DNA of 64,000 nucleotides, taken from NCBI RefSeq assembly GCF_000027125.1, contig NC_017626.1. One strand, 5' to 3'. Each line of letters opens with the position of its first letter. Position 1 is the stretch's first letter. Shown in pieces: positions 50,350 through 57,621 of this stretch. Source of the DNA: Escherichia coli 042. Lineage in GTDB: Bacteria; Pseudomonadota; Gammaproteobacteria; Enterobacterales; Enterobacteriaceae. A model generated the notes under the pieces. It searched no databases, was not told the DNA's origin, and saw only the letters and a list, made by a program, of their open reading frames with translations. The position numbers and the translations under genes were made by a program.

Positions 50350-50754
50350 TTAGATCAGGAAATCGTCGAGAGATTTACCTTCTGCCAGCGCCTGAGCGAT
50401 TGGCTTCGGTGTACGGCCCTGACCGGTCCAGGTTTTAGTTTCACCGTTAACATCGGTGAATTTATATTTTGCCGGACGCGGCTGGCGTTTTTTACCAGCG
50501 CGTGGTGCAGCAGCAGAGCTATTACCCAATAACTCTTCCGGGTTAATTCCGTCAGCTTTCATCAGCTCCAGCCAGGTGCTAATTTTTTCCTGGCGCTCTG
50601 CCAGTTCACGCTGCTGCTGTTCTTCTTCTTCACGTCTTTCTTTAGTGACAACCCTGAATTTTTCGAGCATTTCTTCAAGAACGTCAATGGAGAATTCGCG
50701 AGCCATCGCACGGAGAGTGCGAATGTTATTTAAACTTTGTAACATTACGGACAT
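50350..50754 (-). CDS. stpA: DNA-binding protein StpA (H-NS paralogue)
   Basis: 134 aa, [33 protein letters not shown]...; synteny. Confidence 0.93.
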
Positions 50755-51421
50755 AATAAAGAAAACCTTTTAACGCCAAAACAAAAAAGTATTTCGTCGC
50801 GTAGTGTAAGCGATCACTTATTATATTTCCACAAAATTTAATCTATTTACAGTCCTGCGCGAGATTATTTCAGCTGTTATTTTCTGAAACTCTCAGAATA
50901 ATTTCAAGATTATATATTAGCCATTTTGATGAGTAATTTAGATTATTGGTGAACAGAGCGGCGCTCTCTGCTCGCTAATTCCGCAAGCCTGACAAAACCG
51001 AAGTGAATAAAAATGCAATATAACAGAATAAAAGAAAACACCCCTCACTGGTGCTTTCTGCTGTTAATGTACATTTTCTGGCATAAAAAATGCTGTAAAT
51101 GACCCGGTCACGACATACACCGAATTCTCTACGCTTATAGCGTTACCTCACCCCCAAACTTTCATTAGTTAAATTAAAGGTAATCTCATATCTAATTGAT
51201 TTAATTGAAAATAAATCATATCGGCATGTAAAAATCCACAATGTACAAAAAACGCGCCGTTACGGAATATTTTATCTACAAAAACTGACTAAATAAAAAT
51301 TTTTCACTAATTGATTAGTCATAGCTAGCGATATACGCTATGCGAAAATGCAGATGGCAATGAGATCCACTGTTTTCATCTCCATTAACATCCCATTACG
51401 CTTTTATTAAGGAGCATTAGC

Positions 51422-51871
51422 ATGTTCTCACCGCAGTCACGCTTGCGTCATGCAGTTGCAGATACGTTCGCGATGGTTGTTTACTGTTCTGTCGTGAACA
51501 TGTGTATTGAAGTTTTCCTCTCCGGAATGAGCTTCGAACAGTCTCTTTATTCCAGATTGGTAGCGATTCCGGTGAACATCTTAATTGCATGGCCATACGG
51601 TATGTACCGCGATCTGTTTATGCGCGCAGCACGCAAAGTTAGCCCGTCGGGCTGGATAAAAAATCTGGCGGATATCATGGCTTATGTGACGTTCCAGTCA
51701 CCGGTGTATGTGGCGATCTTGTTAGTGGTGGGCGCAGACTGGCATCAGATTATGGCGGCGGTCAGTTCAAACATCGTTGTTTCGATGTTGATGGGGGCGG
51801 TTTATGGCTACTTCCTCGATTATTGCCGCCGACTGTTTAAAGTCAGCCGTTACCAGCAGGTAAAAGCCTGA
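51422..51871 (+). CDS. alaE: L-alanine exporter AlaE (YgaW)
   Basis: 149 aa membrane protein at the conserved position after stpA. Confidence 0.88.
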
Positions 51872-51907
51872 GCCTTCTTTTCGCGACTGGCATCGCCAGT
51901 CGCGTCT

Positions 51908-52252
51908 TTAACTGGCTTCGCCAAATAAACCATTCAAATAACGTTCAAGCGCAACACGCGAACTAAAGCCATGGGGGATACCGTAATGCTCATGACGTTC
52001 ACCCGCTAAATAGAGCGGAAATTGCTGGTAATGATCGCAAGTTTTAATATCGGAAGCGGGTTCAGCCAGTGTCGAACTACGTTCTTTTAATGTTGGATGA
52101 ATTACCAGGGCGGTACGTCCCATTCGTGCTTCACGATTAACATAGACATAATTTTCCCCACGGCGGTAACCATACGCTTTCTGGGTTACCACATCGACAG
52201 TAAAACCGACTTTTTCAAGTACGCGCGCCACCTCGTCTGGTCGTAAATACAT
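51908..52252 (-). CDS. ygaC: Uncharacterised protein YgaC
   Basis: 114 aa; synteny. Confidence 0.85.
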
Positions 52253-52403
52253 ATTTGATCCTCGTTATTATCAACCGCGGGCCTACCTTACCTGATTGCG
52301 CATTCACAACGCTTTCAGAAAAGTCCATAAAGCCGCGATGAACCTCAGTTAAGAAAATTATGGTCTACACTGAAAATTACATCGAATTCTAATGGGGGAT
52401 CAT

Positions 52404-52733
52404 ATGTTTAACCGACCGAACCGCAACGACGTCGATGATGGCGTGCAGGATATCCAGAATGATGTCAATCAATTAGCTGACAGCCTCGAATCTGTATTGA
52501 AGTCCTGGGGCAGCGACGCCAAAGGGGAAGCCGAAGCCGCTCGTAGTAAAGCGCAGGCTCTACTGAAAGAAACCAGAGCGCGAATGCATGGTCGTACTCG
52601 CGTCCAGCAAGCCGCGCGCGATGCCGTTGGCTGCGCGGATTCTTTTGTTCGTGAAAGACCCTGGTGTAGCGTGGGTACAGCAGCTGCGGTTGGTATTTTT
52701 ATCGGCGCACTGTTAAGCATGCGCAAATCGTAG
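52404..52733 (+). CDS. ygaM: Ribosome-associated inner-membrane protein YgaM (ElaB/DUF883 family)
   Basis: Translation from ATG 52404 begins MFNRPNRNDVDDGVQDIQND...; C-terminal TM helix. Confidence 0.88.
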   Translation: MFNRPNRNDVDDGVQDIQNDVNQLADSLESVLKSWGSDAKGEAEAARSKAQALLKETRARMHGRTRVQQAARDAVGCADSFVRERPWCSVGTAAAVGIFIGALLSMRKS

Positions 52734-52789
52734 TGCAATAATGATATTAAATACGCGTCTTTGACCCCGAAGCCTGGCTTCGGGGTTTT

Positions 52790-54124
52790 TTAGCTTAAGG
52801 CTTTACGTAATTGTTGTGCTACCTGTCGCGCCATACCTTCGTTAACGATATTAGTAAACGAGAGCAGTAATCCACCTTCCCCACTTGAACGGATACGCCA
52901 GTCGCTAAGTGCCTGCACCGCAAGGCCTGCAGCATTGGCTTTACGCGCATGGGCAATATCATCGCCTATCATTCTGATCACCATCTGGATACCACCTTTC
53001 TGCGGCACAACCTGAAATCCTTGCTGCGTCAACGCTTGCTCAATCCATTGCCGACGTTGAGCATAATGCTGACGCATTTTCTTCAGATGCCGCCAGAAAT
53101 GCCCCTCGCGAAGAAAGTCTGCCAGTGTGTTCTGCCATAGAACAGGTACCGCACATGGAGCCAGTGACGCCTGGTGGCGGAATTGTGCAATTTGCTTCAC
53201 CGGCAACACCAGCCACGCACAGCGCAATGCAGGAAATAGCGCTTTGCTGAATGTTCCGGCATAAATTACCCGCTGCGGTGCGTCGAGACTTTTTAACGCC
53301 GGTAACGGCTTACCGTGATAGCGAAACTCACTGTCATAATCATCTTCAATAATCCATGCCTGACTACGATCTGCCCATTCCAGTATCTGATGCCTGCGCG
53401 CTAAAGAGAGCGCCACACCCAGCGGACTTTGGTGTGCTGGTGTTATCAGGGCAAAACGCGCATCAGGATAATTTTGTATTCCGCTTGTGATATCCAGTCC
53501 ATTGTCATCAACCGGCACAGGCAAAATTTCCACATCATGGCGAGTGACAATCGGGCGAATCAGTGGAAAGCCGGGATCTTCTATCCACATCCCGTTTCCC
53601 GGTTTCGCCAGCGCGTGCAGAATTAAAGCTATTGAGGCCGCATAACCGTGAGTGATAAAGACCTGCTCTGGCTGACAATCAATCCCACGTGAAACGCGTA
53701 AGTAATCAACTATTGCCTCGCGCAACGCCACCTCACCGCAGACATCGCCTAACGCCAAATCAAAGCGCGTCTGGGTACGAAGGCGACGCCCCATCACCCG
53801 CGCCCACAGCTCTCGCGGAAAGAGATCGAGTGCGGGTAATCCCATTTGAAATGGCAACGGTTGCTGACTTTCACCGGCAAAAGCTAAAACTTGTACAGTA
53901 GATTGTTGCGGATATATCCGCTCACTGACAAATGTGCCAGCCTGTCCCCGCCTGATCAGCCATCCTTGCGCCACCAGCTCAGCATACGCATTTTCGACAG
54001 TGGATCGAGACACCCCCAGCTCCTGCGACCAGGTACGACTTGAAGGCAGCCTTGCGCCGGGTTTCAGTTCCCCTTGCTCAATAGCCGTTTTTAACTGACG
54101 GGCGATATCCTGATAGCGCGGCAT
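52790..54124 (-). CDS. MocR-family transcriptional regulator (GntR HTH fused to aminotransferase-like domain)
   Basis: 444 aa; N-terminal HTH (RLPSSRTWSQELGVSRSTVENAYAELVAQGW) plus large PLP-fold domain; I recall no gene between ygaM and nrdH in K-12. Confidence 0.8.
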   Translation of the reverse strand: MPRYQDIARQLKTAIEQGELKPGARLPSSRTWSQELGVSRSTVENAYAELVAQGWLIRRGQAGTFVSERIYPQQSTVQVLAFAGESQQPLPFQMGLPALDLFPRELWARVMGRRLRTQTRFDLALGDVCGEVALREAIVDYLRVSRGIDCQPEQVFITHGYAASIALILHALAKPGNGMWIEDPGFPLIRPIVTRHDVEILPVPVDDNGLDITSGIQNYPDARFALITPAHQSPLGVALSLARRHQILEWADRSQAWIIEDDYDSEFRYHGKPLPALKSLDAPQRVIYAGTFSKALFPALRCAWLVLPVKQIAQFRHQASLAPCAVPVLWQNTLADFLREGHFWRHLKKMRQHYAQRRQWIEQALTQQGFQVVPQKGGIQMVIRMIGDDIAHARKANAAGLAVQALSDWRIRSSGEGGLLLSFTNIVNEGMARQVAQQLRKALS

Positions 54125-54211
54125 ATGGTCTGCTTTTTTAGGTAATTTATGGCTCTCTTTAGCAGTCCATTATAGTGCTACATTGCGGGCGTTAATAAGA
54201 GGAGAAACTGT

Positions 54212-54643
54212 ATGACTACATTACGTCAGCCTTACTACGAACTTAGCCCGGCAGTGTATAACGCACTAGTGCAGGCCAAAACGGCACTGGAAAATAGCAC
54301 GCTGGATACCACGTTGATGGAGTTAGTTTATTTGCGCGTCTCGCAAATCAACGGCTGCGCATTTTGTCTGGAGATGCACAGCAAAGCATTGCGCAAATCC
54401 GGCGTGCCACAGCACAAACTGGACGCCCTGGCAGGTTGGCGCGTAAGCCATCATTTTGATGAACGCGAGCGGGCGGCGCTGGCATGGGCGGAATCGGTAA
54501 CCGAAATTGCCAGAACCCATGCGGAAGACGAGGTTTATCAGCCTTTGCTTGAGCATTTCAGCGCAGCAGAGATCAGCGACTTAACGTTTGCCATCGGGCT
54601 GATGAATTGTTTTAACCGTCTGGCCGTTTCCATGCGGATGTAA
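54212..54643 (+). CDS. AhpD-like / carboxymuconolactone decarboxylase family protein
   Basis: 143 aa with CxxxH-type motif (CAFCLEMH); divergent from the MocR-like gene. Confidence 0.75.
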   Translation: MTTLRQPYYELSPAVYNALVQAKTALENSTLDTTLMELVYLRVSQINGCAFCLEMHSKALRKSGVPQHKLDALAGWRVSHHFDERERAALAWAESVTEIARTHAEDEVYQPLLEHFSAAEISDLTFAIGLMNCFNRLAVSMRM

Positions 54644-54774
54644 CTTCTTGATGCCGGGTATTCGCCCGGCAAAAAAACACAAAATCCCCTACCCCGTTGA
54701 GCCATTCATCGGTGGCGTAATCAATCTAAAATTCCCATATCTTGTATGGTTGAATCTTTTTTCAACTACATCTA

Positions 54775-54798
54775 GTATCTCTGTATCAACAGAGATAC
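54775..54798. promoter_or_regulatory. Perfect 9-bp inverted repeat GTATCTCTG-N6-CAGAGATAC upstream of nrdH; candidate NrdR-type operator
   Basis: Palindrome about 55 bp upstream of the nrdH start codon. Confidence 0.45.
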
Positions 54799-54851
54799 AA
54801 CCCGACGCGTATCATCGCGCCGTATCTTCATTTTAAACGGAAATACGAATC

Positions 54852-55097
54852 ATGCGCATTACTATTTACACTCGTAACGATTGCGTTCAGTGCCACGCCA
54901 CCAAACGGGCGATGGAAAACCGGGGCTTTGATTTTGAAATGATTAATGTCGATCGCGTTCCTGAAGCGGCAGAAGCGCTGCGTGCTCAGGGCTTTCGTCA
55001 GTTGCCGGTTGTGATTGCAGGCGATCTTAGCTGGTCTGGTTTCCGTCCGGACATGATTAACCGTCTGCATCCAGCGCCACACGCGGCCAGTGCATGA
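54852..55097 (+). CDS. nrdH: Glutaredoxin-like protein NrdH
   Basis: 81 aa with CVQC redox motif; first gene of nrdHIEF. Confidence 0.93.
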
Positions 55098-55495
55098 GCC
55101 AGCTCGTCTACTTCTCCAGTAGCTCCGAAAATACGCAGCGTTTTATCGAACGTTTAGGACTGCCCGCGGTGCGCATCCCGCTCAATGAGCGGGAACGGAT
55201 TCAGGTAGACGAGCCTTACATCCTGATCGTGCCCTCTTACGGCGGCGGCGGTACGGCTGGCGCAGTGCCACGACAGGTCATTCGCTTTTTAAACGACGAG
55301 CACAACCGGGTGTTGCTGCGCGGCGTTATTGCTTCGGGTAATCGCAACTTTGGTGAGGCGTATGGCCGCGCCGGAGATGTGATAGCCCGGAAATGCGGCG
55401 TGCCGTGGCTGTACCGCTTTGAACTCATGGGTACGCAAAGCGATATCGAAAACGTTCGTAAAGGAGTAACCGAATTTTGGCAACGACAACCGTAG
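55094..55495 (+). CDS. nrdI: Flavodoxin-like protein NrdI
   Basis: Begins [23 protein letters not shown]; overlaps nrdH stop by 4 nt. Confidence 0.93.
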
Positions 55496-57621
55496 AACGC
55501 CTGACGCAGGAAACGATGGATTATCACGCTCTGAATGCGATGCTTAACCTTTACGATAGTGCAGGTCGCATTCAGTTCGATAAAGACCGCCAGGCCGTTG
55601 ACGCCTTTATTGCGACGCATGTGCGTCCGAACAGTGTGACCTTCAGTAGCCAACAGCAGCGCCTGAACTGGCTGGTCAACGAAGGTTACTATGATGAAAG
55701 CGTTCTTAATCGGTACTCTCGCGACTTTGTCATTACGCTGTTTGCCCACGCACACACCAGCGGTTTTCGTTTCCAGACATTCCTCGGGGCATGGAAGTTT
55801 TACACCAGCTATACGCTGAAAACATTCGACGGTAAGCGTTATCTGGAAGATTTTGCCGATCGCGTCACGATGGTGGCGCTGACGCTGGCACAAGGCGATG
55901 AAACACTGGCGACGCAGCTCACTGATGAGATGCTGTCAGGACGCTTTCAGCCAGCCACGCCGACATTCCTCAACTGCGGTAAGCAGCAGCGCGGCGAACT
56001 GGTTTCCTGTTTTCTACTGCGTATTGAAGACAATATGGAGTCGATTGGCCGGGCGGTAAATTCCGCACTGCAACTGTCGAAACGCGGCGGCGGCGTAGCA
56101 TTTTTGCTGTCGAATCTGCGAGAAGCGGGCGCGCCAATTAAACGTATTGAAAATCAATCTTCTGGCGTGATTCCGGTGATGAAAATGCTGGAAGACGCAT
56201 TTTCCTATGCCAACCAGCTCGGCGCGCGTCAGGGTGCTGGCGCAGTCTATTTACATGCCCATCATCCCGATATTCTGCGTTTTCTCGATACAAAGCGGGA
56301 AAATGCCGACGAGAAAATCCGCATTAAAACACTGTCGCTGGGCGTGGTGATCCCGGATATCACTTTCCATCTGGCAAAAGAGAATGCGCAGATGGCACTG
56401 TTTTCGCCTTATGACGTTGAGCGGGTTTATGGCAAGCCGTTTGCTGATATCGCCATCAGTGAACACTATGCCGAACTGGTTGCCAATGAACGCATCCGCA
56501 AAAAATACATCAACGCCCGTGATTTCTTCCAGCGACTGGCAGAAATCCAGTTTGAGTCCGGCTATCCCTACATCATGTATGAAGACACGGTTAACCGTGC
56601 TAACCCTATCGCCGGGCGCATAAATATGAGCAATCTCTGCTCAGAAATTTTGCAGGTTAACAGCGCCTCAGAGTATGACGAGAATCTCGACTATGCCCGC
56701 ACAGGCCATGATATTTCCTGCAATTTAGGTTCGTTGAATATTGCCCACACCATGGATTCCCCCGACTTTGCCCGCACGGTAGAGACTGCCATGCGCGGTT
56801 TAACGGCAGTATCAGATATGAGTCATATCCGCAGCGTGCCGTCCATCGAAGCCGGAAATGCCGCCTCGCACGCCATCGGCCTGGGGCAGATGAATTTACA
56901 CGGTTATCTGGCGCGAGAAGGCATCGCTTATGGATCGCCGGAAGCACTGGATTTCACTAATCTCTATTTCTATACCATCACCTGGCACGCACTGCGTACC
57001 TCGATGTTGCTGGCGCGCGAACGCAGTGAAACCTTCGCCGGGTTCAAACAGTCACGCTATGCCAATGGTGAATATTTTAGCCAATATCTGCAAGGGAACT
57101 GGCAGCCGAAAACGGCGAAAGTTGGCGAACTGTTTACCCGTAGCGGTATTACGTTACCTACCCGTGAGATGTGGGCGCGGCTGCGCGACGACGTGATGCG
57201 CTACGGCATTTACAACCAGAATCTTCAGGCGGTGCCGCCAACCGGTTCTATCTCTTATATCAACCATGCTACGTCGAGTATTCATCCGATTGTGGCGAAA
57301 GTAGAGATACGCAAAGAGGGCAAAACAGGACGCGTTTACTACCCTGCCCCGTTTATGACTAACGAGAATCTGGCGCTGTATCAGGACGCTTACGAAATTG
57401 GCGCAGAAAAGATCATCGACACTTACGCGGAAGCGACTCGCCATGTCGATCAGGGGCTGTCGCTGACGCTGTTTTTCCCCGATACCGCCACCACTCGCGA
57501 TATCAACAAAGCGCAGATTTACGCCTGGCGCAAAGGTATCAAAACGCTCTATTACATCCGCCTGCGTCAGATGGCGCTGGAAGGCACTGAAATTGAAGGC
57601 TGCGTCTCGTGTGCACTTTAA
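55477..57621 (+). CDS. nrdE: Ribonucleotide reductase class Ib alpha subunit NrdE
   Basis: 714 aa, recognised NrdE sequence. Confidence 0.95.

What the first reader, a model, noticed from the sequence alone, without database searches (positions are those of the whole stretch)
52790..54643. Two-gene insertion (MocR-family regulator plus AhpD-like protein) between ygaM and nrdH
From memory of the K-12 gene order, ygaM is directly followed by nrdH. Here a divergent pair sits in between: a GntR-HTH/aminotransferase-fold regulator and a carboxymuconolactone-decarboxylase/AhpD-like protein. This is a small strain-variable module of unknown ligand and function with native GC content.
Basis: partly seen in the sequence, partly recalled or inferred. 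Interest (0 to 1): 0.4.

Follow-up and report, generated by a model that had tools for sequence, protein, structure and literature searches.

The report
Ancestral MocR–AhpD-like gene pair, deleted in K-12
The two genes between ygaM and nrdH are a real regulator and redox-enzyme pair, but they are old enterobacterial genes that K-12 and about three quarters of E. coli have deleted, not an insertion, and their regulatory link was predicted in 2016, so the finding is correct but ordinary.

Summary
A 444-aa MocR-type regulator (52790-54124, minus strand) and a 143-aa AhpD-like CMD protein (54212-54643, plus strand) lie divergently between ygaM and nrdH, and K-12 lacks both.

The "insertion" reading is wrong. 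The pair occupies this slot in E. albertii, Salmonella, Klebsiella, Citrobacter, Kluyvera, Cedecea, Shimwellia, Pluralibacter and Rahnella. It has no mobility signatures and is never on a true plasmid.

Among 5,426 complete E. coli genomes:
- 1,276 carry the full module.
- 111 share a 589-bp deletion that removes the regulator's N-terminal half.
- 4,032 carry the K-12-type empty junction.

Both genes are under purifying selection (dN/dS 0.07-0.11).

The 87-bp intergenic region holds a three-box operator, ATGGYCT-N17-ATGGCNNT-N7-AGNCCAT. Its spacing is invariant in 26 Enterobacterales sequences, and its layout matches the PdxR operator of Bacillus clausii.

Suvorova and Rodionov (2016) already placed the orthologues (STM2803, CKO_04020) in MocR group "Spro_3719", with the AhpD-like gene as the predicted target.

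Effector and physiological role remain untested. Relatives elsewhere add azoreductase-like and GNAT genes, which suggests a thiol/redox or electrophile defence. RefSeq's "PdxR" label is not supported by genomic context.

The parts
52763..52787 (+). ygaM intrinsic terminator (11-bp stem followed by a T run). It marks the left edge of the variable segment and is shared by the module-bearing and K-12-type haplotypes.
   Evidence: Terminator scan; alignment with K-12, O157 and E. albertii.
52790..54124 (-). MocR-type transcription factor gene, 444 aa. It has an N-terminal GntR winged helix-turn-helix (residues 4-66) and a C-terminal fold-type-I aminotransferase-like domain. Residues K294, D261, Y263 and R301 align with the PLP-site residues of GabR.
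   Evidence: ORF; Pfam and NCBIfam; alignments to PdxR 7PQ9 (E 1e-62) and GabR 4N0B (E 5e-55); dN/dS 0.11.
54125..54170 (.). Predicted 46-bp MocR operator. Box 1 is ATGGTCTGC (54125-54133), followed by a T-rich tract. Box 2 is ATGGCTCT (54149-54156). Inverted box 3 is GCAGTCCAT (54162-54170). Box 1 directly abuts the MocR start codon.
   Evidence: Boxes and spacing (24 bp from box 1 to box 2; a 22-bp box 2/3 palindrome) are invariant in 26 Enterobacterales sequences while the spacers vary. The composite pattern occurs once in the 64-kb window, with 0.01 expected.
54171..54176 (+). Candidate -10 hexamer TATAGT for the CMD gene, abutting box 3. The best -35 candidate is only 3/6 (ATGGCT, inside box 2). 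On the opposite strand, 54174-54169 reads TATAAT, a candidate -10 for the MocR gene.
   Evidence: Read directly from the sequence. TATAGT or CATAGT is conserved in Enterobacteriaceae. No promoter passed the consensus scan here, so both assignments are inferred.
54199..54204 (+). Shine-Dalgarno sequence GAGGAG, 7 nt upstream of the CMD start codon.
   Evidence: Sequence; GAGGAG is conserved in most orthologous loci.
54212..54643 (+). CMD-family AhpD-like gene, 143 aa. It carries the motif C49-A-F-C52-x3-H56 plus E37.
   Evidence: Pfam CMD and TIGR00778 AhpD core domain; hit to PA0269 (2IJC/2O4D) at E 3e-31 over the full length; dN/dS 0.07.
54652..54671 (+). Conserved GC-rich hairpin after the CMD stop codon, followed by an A run rather than a T run. 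It is not a canonical terminator on either strand. The right edge of the K-12 deletion lies just before or within it (about 54645-54670).
   Evidence: Fold: -19 kcal/mol, z = -2.1; not reported by the terminator scan; stem conserved with a variable loop in O157, L021 and E. albertii.

Best explanation
This is a two-gene, self-contained regulatory unit that is ancestral to Enterobacteriaceae at the ygaM-nrdH position. Most E. coli lineages, including K-12, have lost it by a clean deletion of about 1.86 kb (net 1,871 bp), running from the T run after the ygaM terminator to just past the CMD stop codon.

Shown:
- The gene identities.
- The conserved position of the pair across genera.
- The three states found in E. 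coli (full module, partial deletion, empty junction).
- Purifying selection on both genes.
- A three-box operator with invariant spacing in the 87-bp divergent region.

Inferred by analogy with GabR and PdxR:
- The MocR protein is a head-to-tail dimer that carries PLP on K294.
- Its two winged-helix domains bind either the direct pair (boxes 1+2) or the inverted pair (boxes 1+3) of the 46-bp operator.
- The operator lies in the regulator's own leader and abuts its start codon, so the regulator represses itself.
- A change in the PLP site (cofactor loading, or an amine forming an external aldimine) switches the binding mode. That switch turns on the weak-(-35) promoter of the divergent gene.

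The target is a small AhpD-like thiol oxidoreductase with a CxxC-x3-H motif. It most likely reduces a peroxide or other oxidised or electrophilic substrate, or serves as a disulfide reductase adaptor.

In Pseudomonas, Burkholderiales and other relatives, the same regulator/AhpD-like pair is extended by an azoreductase/quinone-reductase-like flavoprotein and a GNAT acetyltransferase. The regulon's theme is therefore probably defence against a redox-active or electrophilic compound, not vitamin B6 synthesis or aromatic-ring catabolism.
For: Conserved position:
- 22 of 22 enterobacterial loci carry the CMD gene divergent from the MocR gene, and most also have recognisable nrdHI and ygaM/ygaC/alaE on either side.
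- Salmonella Senftenberg and K. pneumoniae have stpA-alaE-ygaC-ygaM-MocR-CMD-nrdHIE.

E. coli census:
- 1,387 of 5,426 genomes carry at least part of the module, always one copy and always chromosomal.
- 1,276 carry the full length.
- 4,032 carry the K-12-type junction.
- The plasmid search returned only mislabelled chromosomes or distant homologues.
- No flanking direct repeats were found, and GC is native.

Selection: MocR dN/dS is 0.11 and CMD 0.07 between E. coli alleles.

Operator: invariant boxes and spacing in 26 sequences spanning four families of Enterobacterales, and unique in the window. The layout (two direct motifs, one inverted motif and an A/T tract in about 48 bp between divergent genes) is that of B. 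clausii PdxR (PMC10450172).

PLP site: the FSK lysine, the DDYDSEF motif and the phosphate-binding arginine align with GabR and PdxR.

Target: about 50% identical to PA0269 along its whole length. PA0269 is an AhpD-like protein with weak, thiol-dependent H2O2 reduction (PMC3141380).

Prior prediction: MocR group "Spro_3719" (STM2803, CKO_04020, KPN_03002, Ent638_0497, ECA2654) regulates COG2128. Sister regulogs add AcpD, GNAT, Bcp and a cupin (PMC5320631 supplement).

My own count among 57 non-enterobacterial homologue loci: 43 have CMD, 34 an AzoR-like gene and 23 a GNAT gene within about 4 kb.
Against: - No experiment on this regulator or its orthologues was found.
- The direction of control (activation or repression of CMD) is not determined.
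- No sigma-70 promoter in the intergenic region passed the consensus scan.
- The effector is unknown.
- PA0269's peroxidase activity is weak, and its catalytic Tyr50 is Phe51 here.
- Enterobacteria have only the minimal pair, so the azoreductase/GNAT association may not carry over.
- The NCBIfam PdxR equivalog model scores above its cut-off (407.7 against 320), which argues for a B6 role.
- 74% of E. coli genomes do without the module, so any role is dispensable.
Confidence: 0.75

Rival explanations
1. One reading: the pair is a small horizontally acquired insertion into a K-12-like ygaM-nrdH spacer in this strain's lineage.
For: Only 1,276 of 5,426 E. coli genomes carry the full module, and K-12 lacks it. 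The MocR alleles inside E. coli are unusually divergent (dS 0.41), which shows that recombination has acted at the locus.
Against: The same position and orientation occur in more than 20 species of Enterobacteriaceae, and in Rahnella, Salmonella and Klebsiella. Similarity falls off with host relatedness, from 90% identity in E. albertii to 62-77% in other enterobacterial genera. There is no integrase, tRNA, IS element or flanking repeat. GC is native. The module is never on a plasmid and never in a second copy.
Confidence: 0.03
2. The regulator is a genuine PdxR, a PLP-sensing controller of vitamin B6 metabolism, as newer RefSeq records name it.
For: The NCBIfam PdxR equivalog NF052282 scores 407.7 bits against a cut-off of 320. 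B. clausii PdxR is the best PDB hit. The operator layout resembles PdxR's. Like PdxR, the protein lacks the two arginines that hold GABA in GabR. PLP itself could be the only ligand.
Against: The adjacent, co-conserved target is an AhpD-like gene. It is not pdxST, pdxK or a B6 transporter. Suvorova and Rodionov place the C. koseri orthologue CKO_04020 in group Spro_3719, separate from that genome's PdxR2 (CKO_00371, target pdxK) and PdxR3 (CKO_02700). Identity to characterised PdxR is only about one third, and GabR scores nearly as well.
Confidence: 0.1
3. The second gene is a true gamma-carboxymuconolactone decarboxylase, and the pair is a remnant of an aromatic (protocatechuate) catabolic pathway.
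For: The Pfam family name (CMD) and the RefSeq product name.
Against: No PcaC-type NCBIfam model matched; only AhpD-core and peroxidase-related models did. The CxxC-x3-H redox motif is present, and PA0269 is the closest structure. No pca genes lie nearby in any of the 79 loci examined; the neighbours are redox flavoproteins and GNATs.
Confidence: 0.02
4. In E. coli the module is a decaying, effectively neutral relic with no current function.
For: It is completely deleted in 74% of genomes. A second, independent 589-bp deletion has destroyed the regulator in 111 genomes. CFT073 has a 3'-end indel in the CMD gene. A Salmonella study used STM2804 as a neutral marker-insertion site, calling it a gene of "no known function" (PMC3723669).
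Against: Where the genes are present, both ORFs are intact and under purifying selection (dN/dS 0.07-0.11 over dS up to 0.41). The operator is perfectly conserved between the two deeply diverged E. coli alleles.
Confidence: 0.1

Closest known systems
MocR orthologous group "Spro_3719" (Enterobacteriales regulog; Suvorova and Rodionov 2016, Microb Genom 2:e000047, PMC5320631)
   Same: This is the same family. The listed members are STM2803 (Salmonella LT2), CKO_04020, KPN_03002, Ent638_0497, ECA2654 and Spro_3719, each with a predicted one-gene regulon of COG2128 (AhpD/CMD). The Salmonella and Klebsiella loci fetched here show the identical arrangement.
   Different: E. coli K-12 was that study's E. 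coli representative (from my memory of the RegPrecise genome set). The E. coli copy, its presence/absence census and its two alleles are therefore not described there. The group is mentioned only in the supplement, with no function assigned and no experiment.
PdxR of Bacillus clausii (PDB 7PQ9; PMC10450172)
   Same: Same domain architecture, PLP lysine and divergent gene arrangement. The operator is about 46-48 bp, with two direct motifs, one inverted motif and an A/T-rich bendable tract. It is the best PDB sequence match (E 1e-62).
   Different: PdxR's target is pdxST (PLP synthase), whereas here the target is an AhpD-like gene. Identity is about one third, and the box sequences differ.
GabR of Bacillus subtilis (PDB 4N0B, 5T4J)
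   Same: A MocR-type head-to-tail dimer that represses itself and activates a divergent gene. The PLP-site residues K312, D279, Y281 and R319 align with K294, D261, Y263 and R301 here.
   Different: The GABA-carboxylate arginines R207 and R430 (their roles recalled from the GabR literature) are L188 and D408 here. The NCBIfam GabR model scores 264 bits against a cut-off of 600.
PA0269 of Pseudomonas aeruginosa, an AhpD-like protein (PDB 2O4D/2IJC; PMC3141380)
   Same: About 50% identical over the full length. It shares the CxxC-x3-H motif and the glutamate of the proton relay. It also lies next to a MocR regulator (PA0268, regulog target COG2128).
   Different: PA0269's Tyr50 is Phe51 here. 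PA0268 belongs to a different MocR orthologous group. Only weak H2O2 reduction was shown for PA0269, and its physiological substrate is unknown.
AhpD of Mycobacterium tuberculosis
   Same: Same CMD fold family and CxxC redox chemistry.
   Different: The TIGR00777 AhpD subfamily model scores 30.9 bits against a cut-off of 191.95. The catalytic helices sit at the opposite end of the chain (PMC3141380 abstract). No partner AhpC is encoded next to the gene in any locus examined here.

Membership tests
MocR subfamily of GntR transcription factors | N-terminal GntR-type winged helix-turn-helix domain | tested here: met
   PF00392, 63.6 bits, residues 4-66.
MocR subfamily of GntR transcription factors | C-terminal fold-type-I aminotransferase-like domain with the PLP-binding lysine | tested here: met
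   PF00155, 90.8 bits. K294 in the FSK motif aligns with GabR K312 and PdxR K309. The DDYDSEF motif and R301 are conserved.
MocR subfamily of GntR transcription factors | Repeated operator boxes in the region shared with a divergently transcribed target | tested here: met
   Three boxes with invariant spacing in 26 Enterobacterales sequences; unique in the window. Actual binding was not tested.
MocR subfamily of GntR transcription factors | PLP actually bound, and effector-dependent DNA binding | not testable with these tools
   Requires purified protein (absorbance spectra and gel-shift assays).
PdxR (vitamin B6 regulator) | Curated sequence model score above the cut-off | tested here: met
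   NF052282 scores 407.7 bits against a cut-off of 320.
PdxR (vitamin B6 regulator) | Controls adjacent PLP synthesis or salvage genes (pdxST, pdxK, B6 transporter) | tested here: not met
   The divergent gene is CMD/AhpD-like in all 22 enterobacterial loci. The C. koseri orthologue is classified apart from PdxR2 and PdxR3.
GabR | Model score above the cut-off, and the arginine pair that binds the GABA carboxylate | tested here: not met
   NF052285 scores 264 bits against a cut-off of 600. GabR R207 aligns with L188 and R430 with D408.
Rhizopine MocR / PtsJ / EhuR / YczR | Curated model score above the cut-off | tested here: not met
   Scores against cut-offs: 353 vs 650, 127 vs 573, 152 vs 480 and 164 vs 487 bits.
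CMD / AhpD-like superfamily | CMD domain and AhpD core domain | tested here: met
   PF02627 scores 75.4 bits (cut-off 23). TIGR00778 scores 54.9 bits (cut-off 27.8).
CMD / AhpD-like superfamily | Redox motif Cys-x-x-Cys-x3-His plus the relay glutamate | tested here: met
   E37, C49, C52 and H56 align with PA0269 E36, C48, C51 and H55. Tyr50 is replaced by Phe51.
Bona fide AhpD (AhpC reductase) | AhpD subfamily model above the cut-off, and a partner AhpC | tested here: not met
   TIGR00777 scores 30.9 bits against 191.95. No ahpC gene is adjacent.
Gamma-carboxymuconolactone decarboxylase (PcaC) | PcaC-type model match and pca pathway neighbours | tested here: not met
   No PcaC model is among the NCBIfam hits. 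No pca genes are in the locus.
Genomic island / horizontally inserted module | Mobility genes, flanking repeats, atypical composition, variable location, absence from outgroups | tested here: not met
   None of these was found. The module is present at the same site in outgroup genera.

The most novel reading that the evidence does not exclude
The regulator may use its bound PLP as a chemical sensor for carbonyl-reactive or redox-active toxicants such as arylamines, hydroxylamines, hydrazines or quinone-derived species. This would parallel the cyanide/PLP proposal for P. aeruginosa MpaR (PMC10790758).

On that reading it switches on an AhpD-like thiol reductase. No canonical terminator follows the CMD gene, so its transcription might also read into nrdHIEF. 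That would couple the stress signal to the oxidative-stress ribonucleotide reductase.

The K-12-type deletion would then have removed that input and replaced the distal NrdR-box region of the nrdHIEF promoter. Control of nrdHIEF would then differ between the roughly 26% of E. coli with some of the module and the 74% without it.
Probability: 0.07. Interest if true: 0.5.

Novelty: already known. Interest (0 to 1): 0.15.

Why it matters
The practical value is modest.

- It corrects the direction of the event. This is gene loss in K-12-type lineages, not gain in this strain.
- It flags a probable over-annotation now spreading in RefSeq, where the regulator is named "PdxR". Genomic context and the published orthologue classification do not support a vitamin B6 role.
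- It gives a precise, testable 46-bp operator and a natural allelic series in E. coli: intact B2-type, intact O157-type, regulator-deleted and fully deleted. These could be used to find the effector of a widespread but uncharacterised MocR/AhpD-like regulon.
- It shows that the nrdHIEF upstream region differs between module-bearing and module-lacking strains. That could matter to anyone extrapolating K-12 nrdHIEF regulation to B2 or O157 strains.

Tried and rejected
Insertion or mobile element. I looked for flanking repeats, plasmid copies, multiple copies and GC deviation. All were negative.

Known RNA elements. An Rfam scan of 49500-56000 found nothing.

Additional operator copies. The full composite pattern is unique in the window. 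The box 2/3 palindrome alone, with 2 mismatches allowed, gives 3 hits against 6 expected by chance, so the other two are noise.

Consensus promoters. None passed the scan in the intergenic region. The -10 assignments are therefore hand-read and inferred.

Terminator after CMD. There is a conserved hairpin but no T run. Read-through into nrdH is possible but unsupported.

Literature.
- "MocR" together with "carboxymuconolactone decarboxylase" returned no paper.
- Locus-tag searches (STM2803/4, Z3973/4, ECs3534/5, PA0268, Spro_3719 and others) found no functional study.
- STM2804 was used as a neutral marker site.
- "z3974" was among the proteins pulled down from O157 lysate on a salicylidene-acylhydrazide matrix, but it did not bind in Far-Western assays (PMC3191033). 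I could not verify that Z3974 is this CMD gene because the supplement is not held, so I treat it only as a lead.

Long-range complementarity. The operator and the MocR coding sequence share 12-nt and 11-nt perfect inverted matches. These are not conserved in O157, L021 or E. albertii and show no compensatory changes, so they are probably chance.

Strain P276M. It looked like a third type of empty site, but it is a frameshift-ridden assembly and I ignored it.

Not run: structure prediction, fold search and the large profile searches. Close solved homologues and a published classification already answer what they would have addressed.
Full report
**1. What is there**

Between ygaM (52392-52733, +) and nrdH (54852-55097, +) the window has two divergent ORFs. 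One is at 52790-54124 on the minus strand (444 aa). The other is at 54212-54643 on the plus strand (143 aa).

The first ORF has a GntR winged-helix domain (residues 4-66, 63.6 bits) and a class I/II aminotransferase domain (90.8 bits). The second is a CMD-family protein (PF02627, 75.4 bits). NCBIfam confirms the flanking genes as YgaM and NrdH. Module GC is 51.7%, against 47-49% in the flanks.

**2. K-12 and the E. coli population**

K-12 has a 247-bp ygaM-nrdH spacer and no trace of either gene (L001). That is 1,871 bp shorter than the window. Across 5,426 complete E. coli genomes the flanks are present in 5,421. The states are:

| State | Genomes |
|---|---|
| Full-length module | 1,276 |
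| Shared 589-bp internal deletion | 111 |
| K-12-type empty junction | 4,032 |

- The 589-bp deletion covers window 53537-54125. It removes MocR residues 1-196 and the first base of box 1, and leaves CMD intact (for example T309.Ta3, L003).
- The three states add up to essentially every genome.
- The module is always single-copy and chromosomal. The "plasmid" hits are mislabelled chromosomes or distant homologues.
- Two allele classes exist. A CFT073/Nissle type is at least 99% identical to the window (1,007 genomes). An O157:H7 type is about 92% identical (365 genomes).

**3. Insertion or deletion?**

A scan of one genome per species returned 79 loci encoding relatives of the regulator. In all 22 enterobacterial loci the CMD gene lies divergently next to it, and most also have recognisable nrdHI and ygaM/ygaC/alaE on either side. 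These loci cover E. albertii, a divergent Escherichia lineage, Kluyvera, Pseudocitrobacter, Cedecea, Pseudescherichia, Shimwellia, Pluralibacter, several "Enterobacter sp." and Rahnella. The three Citrobacter loci keep ygaC, the pair and nrdHI but gave no ygaM match.

Annotated Salmonella Senftenberg and K. pneumoniae records show stpA-alaE-ygaC-ygaM-MocR-CMD-nrdHIE. No integrase, tRNA, IS element or flanking direct repeat is present. The pair is therefore ancestral, and the K-12 state is a deletion.

The left breakpoint lies in the T run after the ygaM terminator (about 52788). The right breakpoint lies just after the CMD stop codon (about 54645). A further roughly 13 bp is missing in the downstream hairpin.

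**4. Selection and allelic divergence**

Comparing the window with O157:

| Gene | dN/dS | dS |
|---|---|---|
| MocR | 0.11 | 0.41 |
| CMD | 0.07 | 0.087 |

Both genes are constrained wherever they are present. The regulator gene and the 3' half of ygaM form a block far more diverged than nrdH (dS 0.056).

The two E. coli regulator alleles are 91.4% identical in amino acid sequence. Each is 89-93% identical to the alleles of E. marmotae, E. albertii and the L021 lineage. This points to introgression or an old polymorphism. I could not resolve which.

**5. The operator**

Intergenic regions from 26 Enterobacterales sequences share ATGGYCT-N17-ATGGCNNT-N7-AGNCCAT. Box 1 to box 2 is exactly 24 bp in every sequence, and boxes 2/3 form a 22-bp palindrome. 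The spacer sequences vary, apart from a T-rich tract after box 1.

In the window this is 54125-54170. The composite pattern is unique in the 64 kb, with 0.01 matches expected by chance. Boxes 1 and 3 are the best inverted pair: ATGGTCTGC against the complement of GCAGTCCAT, 8 of 9 matches.

- Box 1 abuts the regulator's start codon.
- Box 3 abuts a conserved TATAGT/CATAGT that I read as the CMD -10. The best -35 is only 3/6.
- The opposite strand reads TATAAT at 54174-54169, a candidate -10 for the regulator gene.
- No promoter passed the consensus scan, so these promoter calls are inferences.
- More distant homologue loci (Pseudomonas, Massilia, Derxia) do not have this motif.

**6. Comparison with characterised MocR regulators**

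The best solved relatives are B. clausii PdxR (7PQ9, E 1e-62) and B. subtilis GabR (4N0B, E 5e-55). The PLP lysine (K294), the DDYDSEF motif (D261, Y263) and the phosphate arginine (R301) are conserved. GabR's R207 and R430 are L188 and D408 here; those two arginines hold the GABA carboxylate (from my memory of the GabR literature). A GABA-like effector is therefore unlikely.

The PdxR operator is two direct motifs plus one inverted motif, with an A/T-rich bendable tract, in a 48-bp segment between divergent genes. Apo and PLP-bound forms choose different motif pairs (PMC10450172). The operator found here has the same layout.

I therefore propose the same mechanism: a dimer wraps about 46 bp, represses its own gene, and a ligand-dependent switch of box pairs controls the divergent promoter. 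This is inference. The sign of control is open, although the weak -35 favours activation.

**7. The target**

The CMD protein is about 50% identical over its whole length to PA0269 (2IJC/2O4D, E 3e-31) and to Atu0492. PA0269 is an AhpD-like protein with a proton relay of E36, C48, Y50, C51 and H55. It shows weak H2O2 reduction that thiol alkylation blocks (PMC3141380). The corresponding residues here are E37, C49, F51, C52 and H56.

It is not a bona fide AhpD: TIGR00777 scores 30.9 bits against a cut-off of 191.95. No PcaC-type decarboxylase model matches.

**8. What was already known**

Suvorova and Rodionov (2016) list STM2803, CKO_04020, KPN_03002, Ent638_0497, ECA2654 and Spro_3719 as the "Spro_3719 - Enterobacteriales" regulog, with COG2128 as the only target. 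Related regulogs in the same orthologous group add AcpD (azoreductase), PF00583 (GNAT), Bcp, COG4232 and a cupin. COG2128 appears in 53 reconstructed MocR regulons (PMC5320631 supplement).

C. koseri's PdxR2 and PdxR3 are separate groups. This undercuts the "PdxR" name that RefSeq now gives the E. coli gene, even though the NCBIfam PdxR model passes its cut-off.

My own survey agrees with the published one. Among 57 non-enterobacterial homologue loci, 43 have a CMD gene, 34 an AzoR-like flavodoxin-fold reductase and 23 a GNAT within about 4 kb, often as one divergent operon. The recurring partners suggest a redox or electrophile defence theme. From my own knowledge, E. coli AzoR protects against electrophilic quinones. 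No experimental study of any orthologue was found.

**9. Verdict**

The "insertion" interpretation is wrong in polarity. The unit is a previously predicted, experimentally uncharacterised MocR/AhpD-like regulon that is being lost from E. coli. It is ordinary accessory-genome variation, with a well-defined operator and a useful natural allelic series.

- Ancestry and deletion: confidence about 0.95.
- Regulator-operator-target logic: about 0.8.
- Redox or electrophile defence role: about 0.4.

Noticed in passing
window about 4,000-41,000: A roughly 37-kb stretch has GC of 32-46% in most 2-kb windows, apart from an interior stretch of about 49-51% at 30-34 kb, against about 50% in the flanks. 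Megablast of 4000-28000 hits DotA/TraY, MobQ relaxase, TraW-family and integrase genes. At least 80% coverage occurs in only 3 of 5,426 complete E. coli genomes. This looks like a rare integrative conjugative or mobilisable element, and it is the real insertion in this window.
   Followed up: partly
window 54680-54747 (compare L001:2010-2075): All module-bearing haplotypes (window, O157, L021, E. albertii) share one sequence upstream of the nrdH -35. The K-12-type empty haplotype has a strongly divergent roughly 60-bp segment there. That segment includes the distal NrdR-box-like 16-mer: K-12 TTGCTATATATTGTGT against window TTCCCATATCTTGTAT (54732-54747). The K-12 form resembles that of Klebsiella, Pluralibacter and Pseudocitrobacter. 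The NrdR-box consensus is from memory. The deletion haplotype may therefore differ in nrdHIEF repression.
   Followed up: partly
window 52510-54100 compared with L002 (O157:H7): A block covering the 3' half of ygaM and the whole MocR gene has dS of 0.32-0.41 between the window (B2-type) and O157-type alleles. The adjacent CMD and nrdH have dS of 0.06-0.09. At protein level the two E. coli MocR alleles (91.4% identical) are as far apart as either is from the E. marmotae or E. albertii alleles. The cause is introgression or an old polymorphism; the source is unidentified.
   Followed up: partly
L003 (T309.Ta3), equivalent to window 53537-54125: A 589-bp deletion shared by 111 E. coli genomes removes MocR residues 1-196 and the first base of operator box 1. 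Boxes 2 and 3, the candidate -10 and an intact CMD gene remain. This is a natural regulator knock-out.
   Followed up: yes
L002:1946-2039 (O157:H7 PA20), between window 52753 and 52754: O157:H7 carries a 94-bp insert between the ygaM stop codon and its terminator. The sequence resembles a REP/BIME element (...AACGCCTTGTCCGCCTACAGG...). The resemblance to REP is judged from memory.
   Followed up: no
L084:2623-3108 (CFT073): The CFT073 CMD gene is annotated as 486 bp rather than 432 bp. The match is 1 bp shorter than the query (1,853 against 1,854), which points to a 1-bp indel near the 3' end that extends the reading frame.
   Followed up: no
window 54141-54163 against 53260-53270 and 53400-53411: Two perfect inverted matches (11 and 12 nt) link the operator/leader region to two sites inside the MocR coding sequence. 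They are not conserved and show no compensatory changes in O157, L021 or E. albertii, so they are probably chance.
   Followed up: yes
window 50800-51400: The stpA-alaE intergenic region is AT-rich (GC 34-38%). It is only 51-57% alignable between E. coli and E. albertii or L021, while the flanking genes are 90-98% identical. Rfam found nothing there.
   Followed up: no
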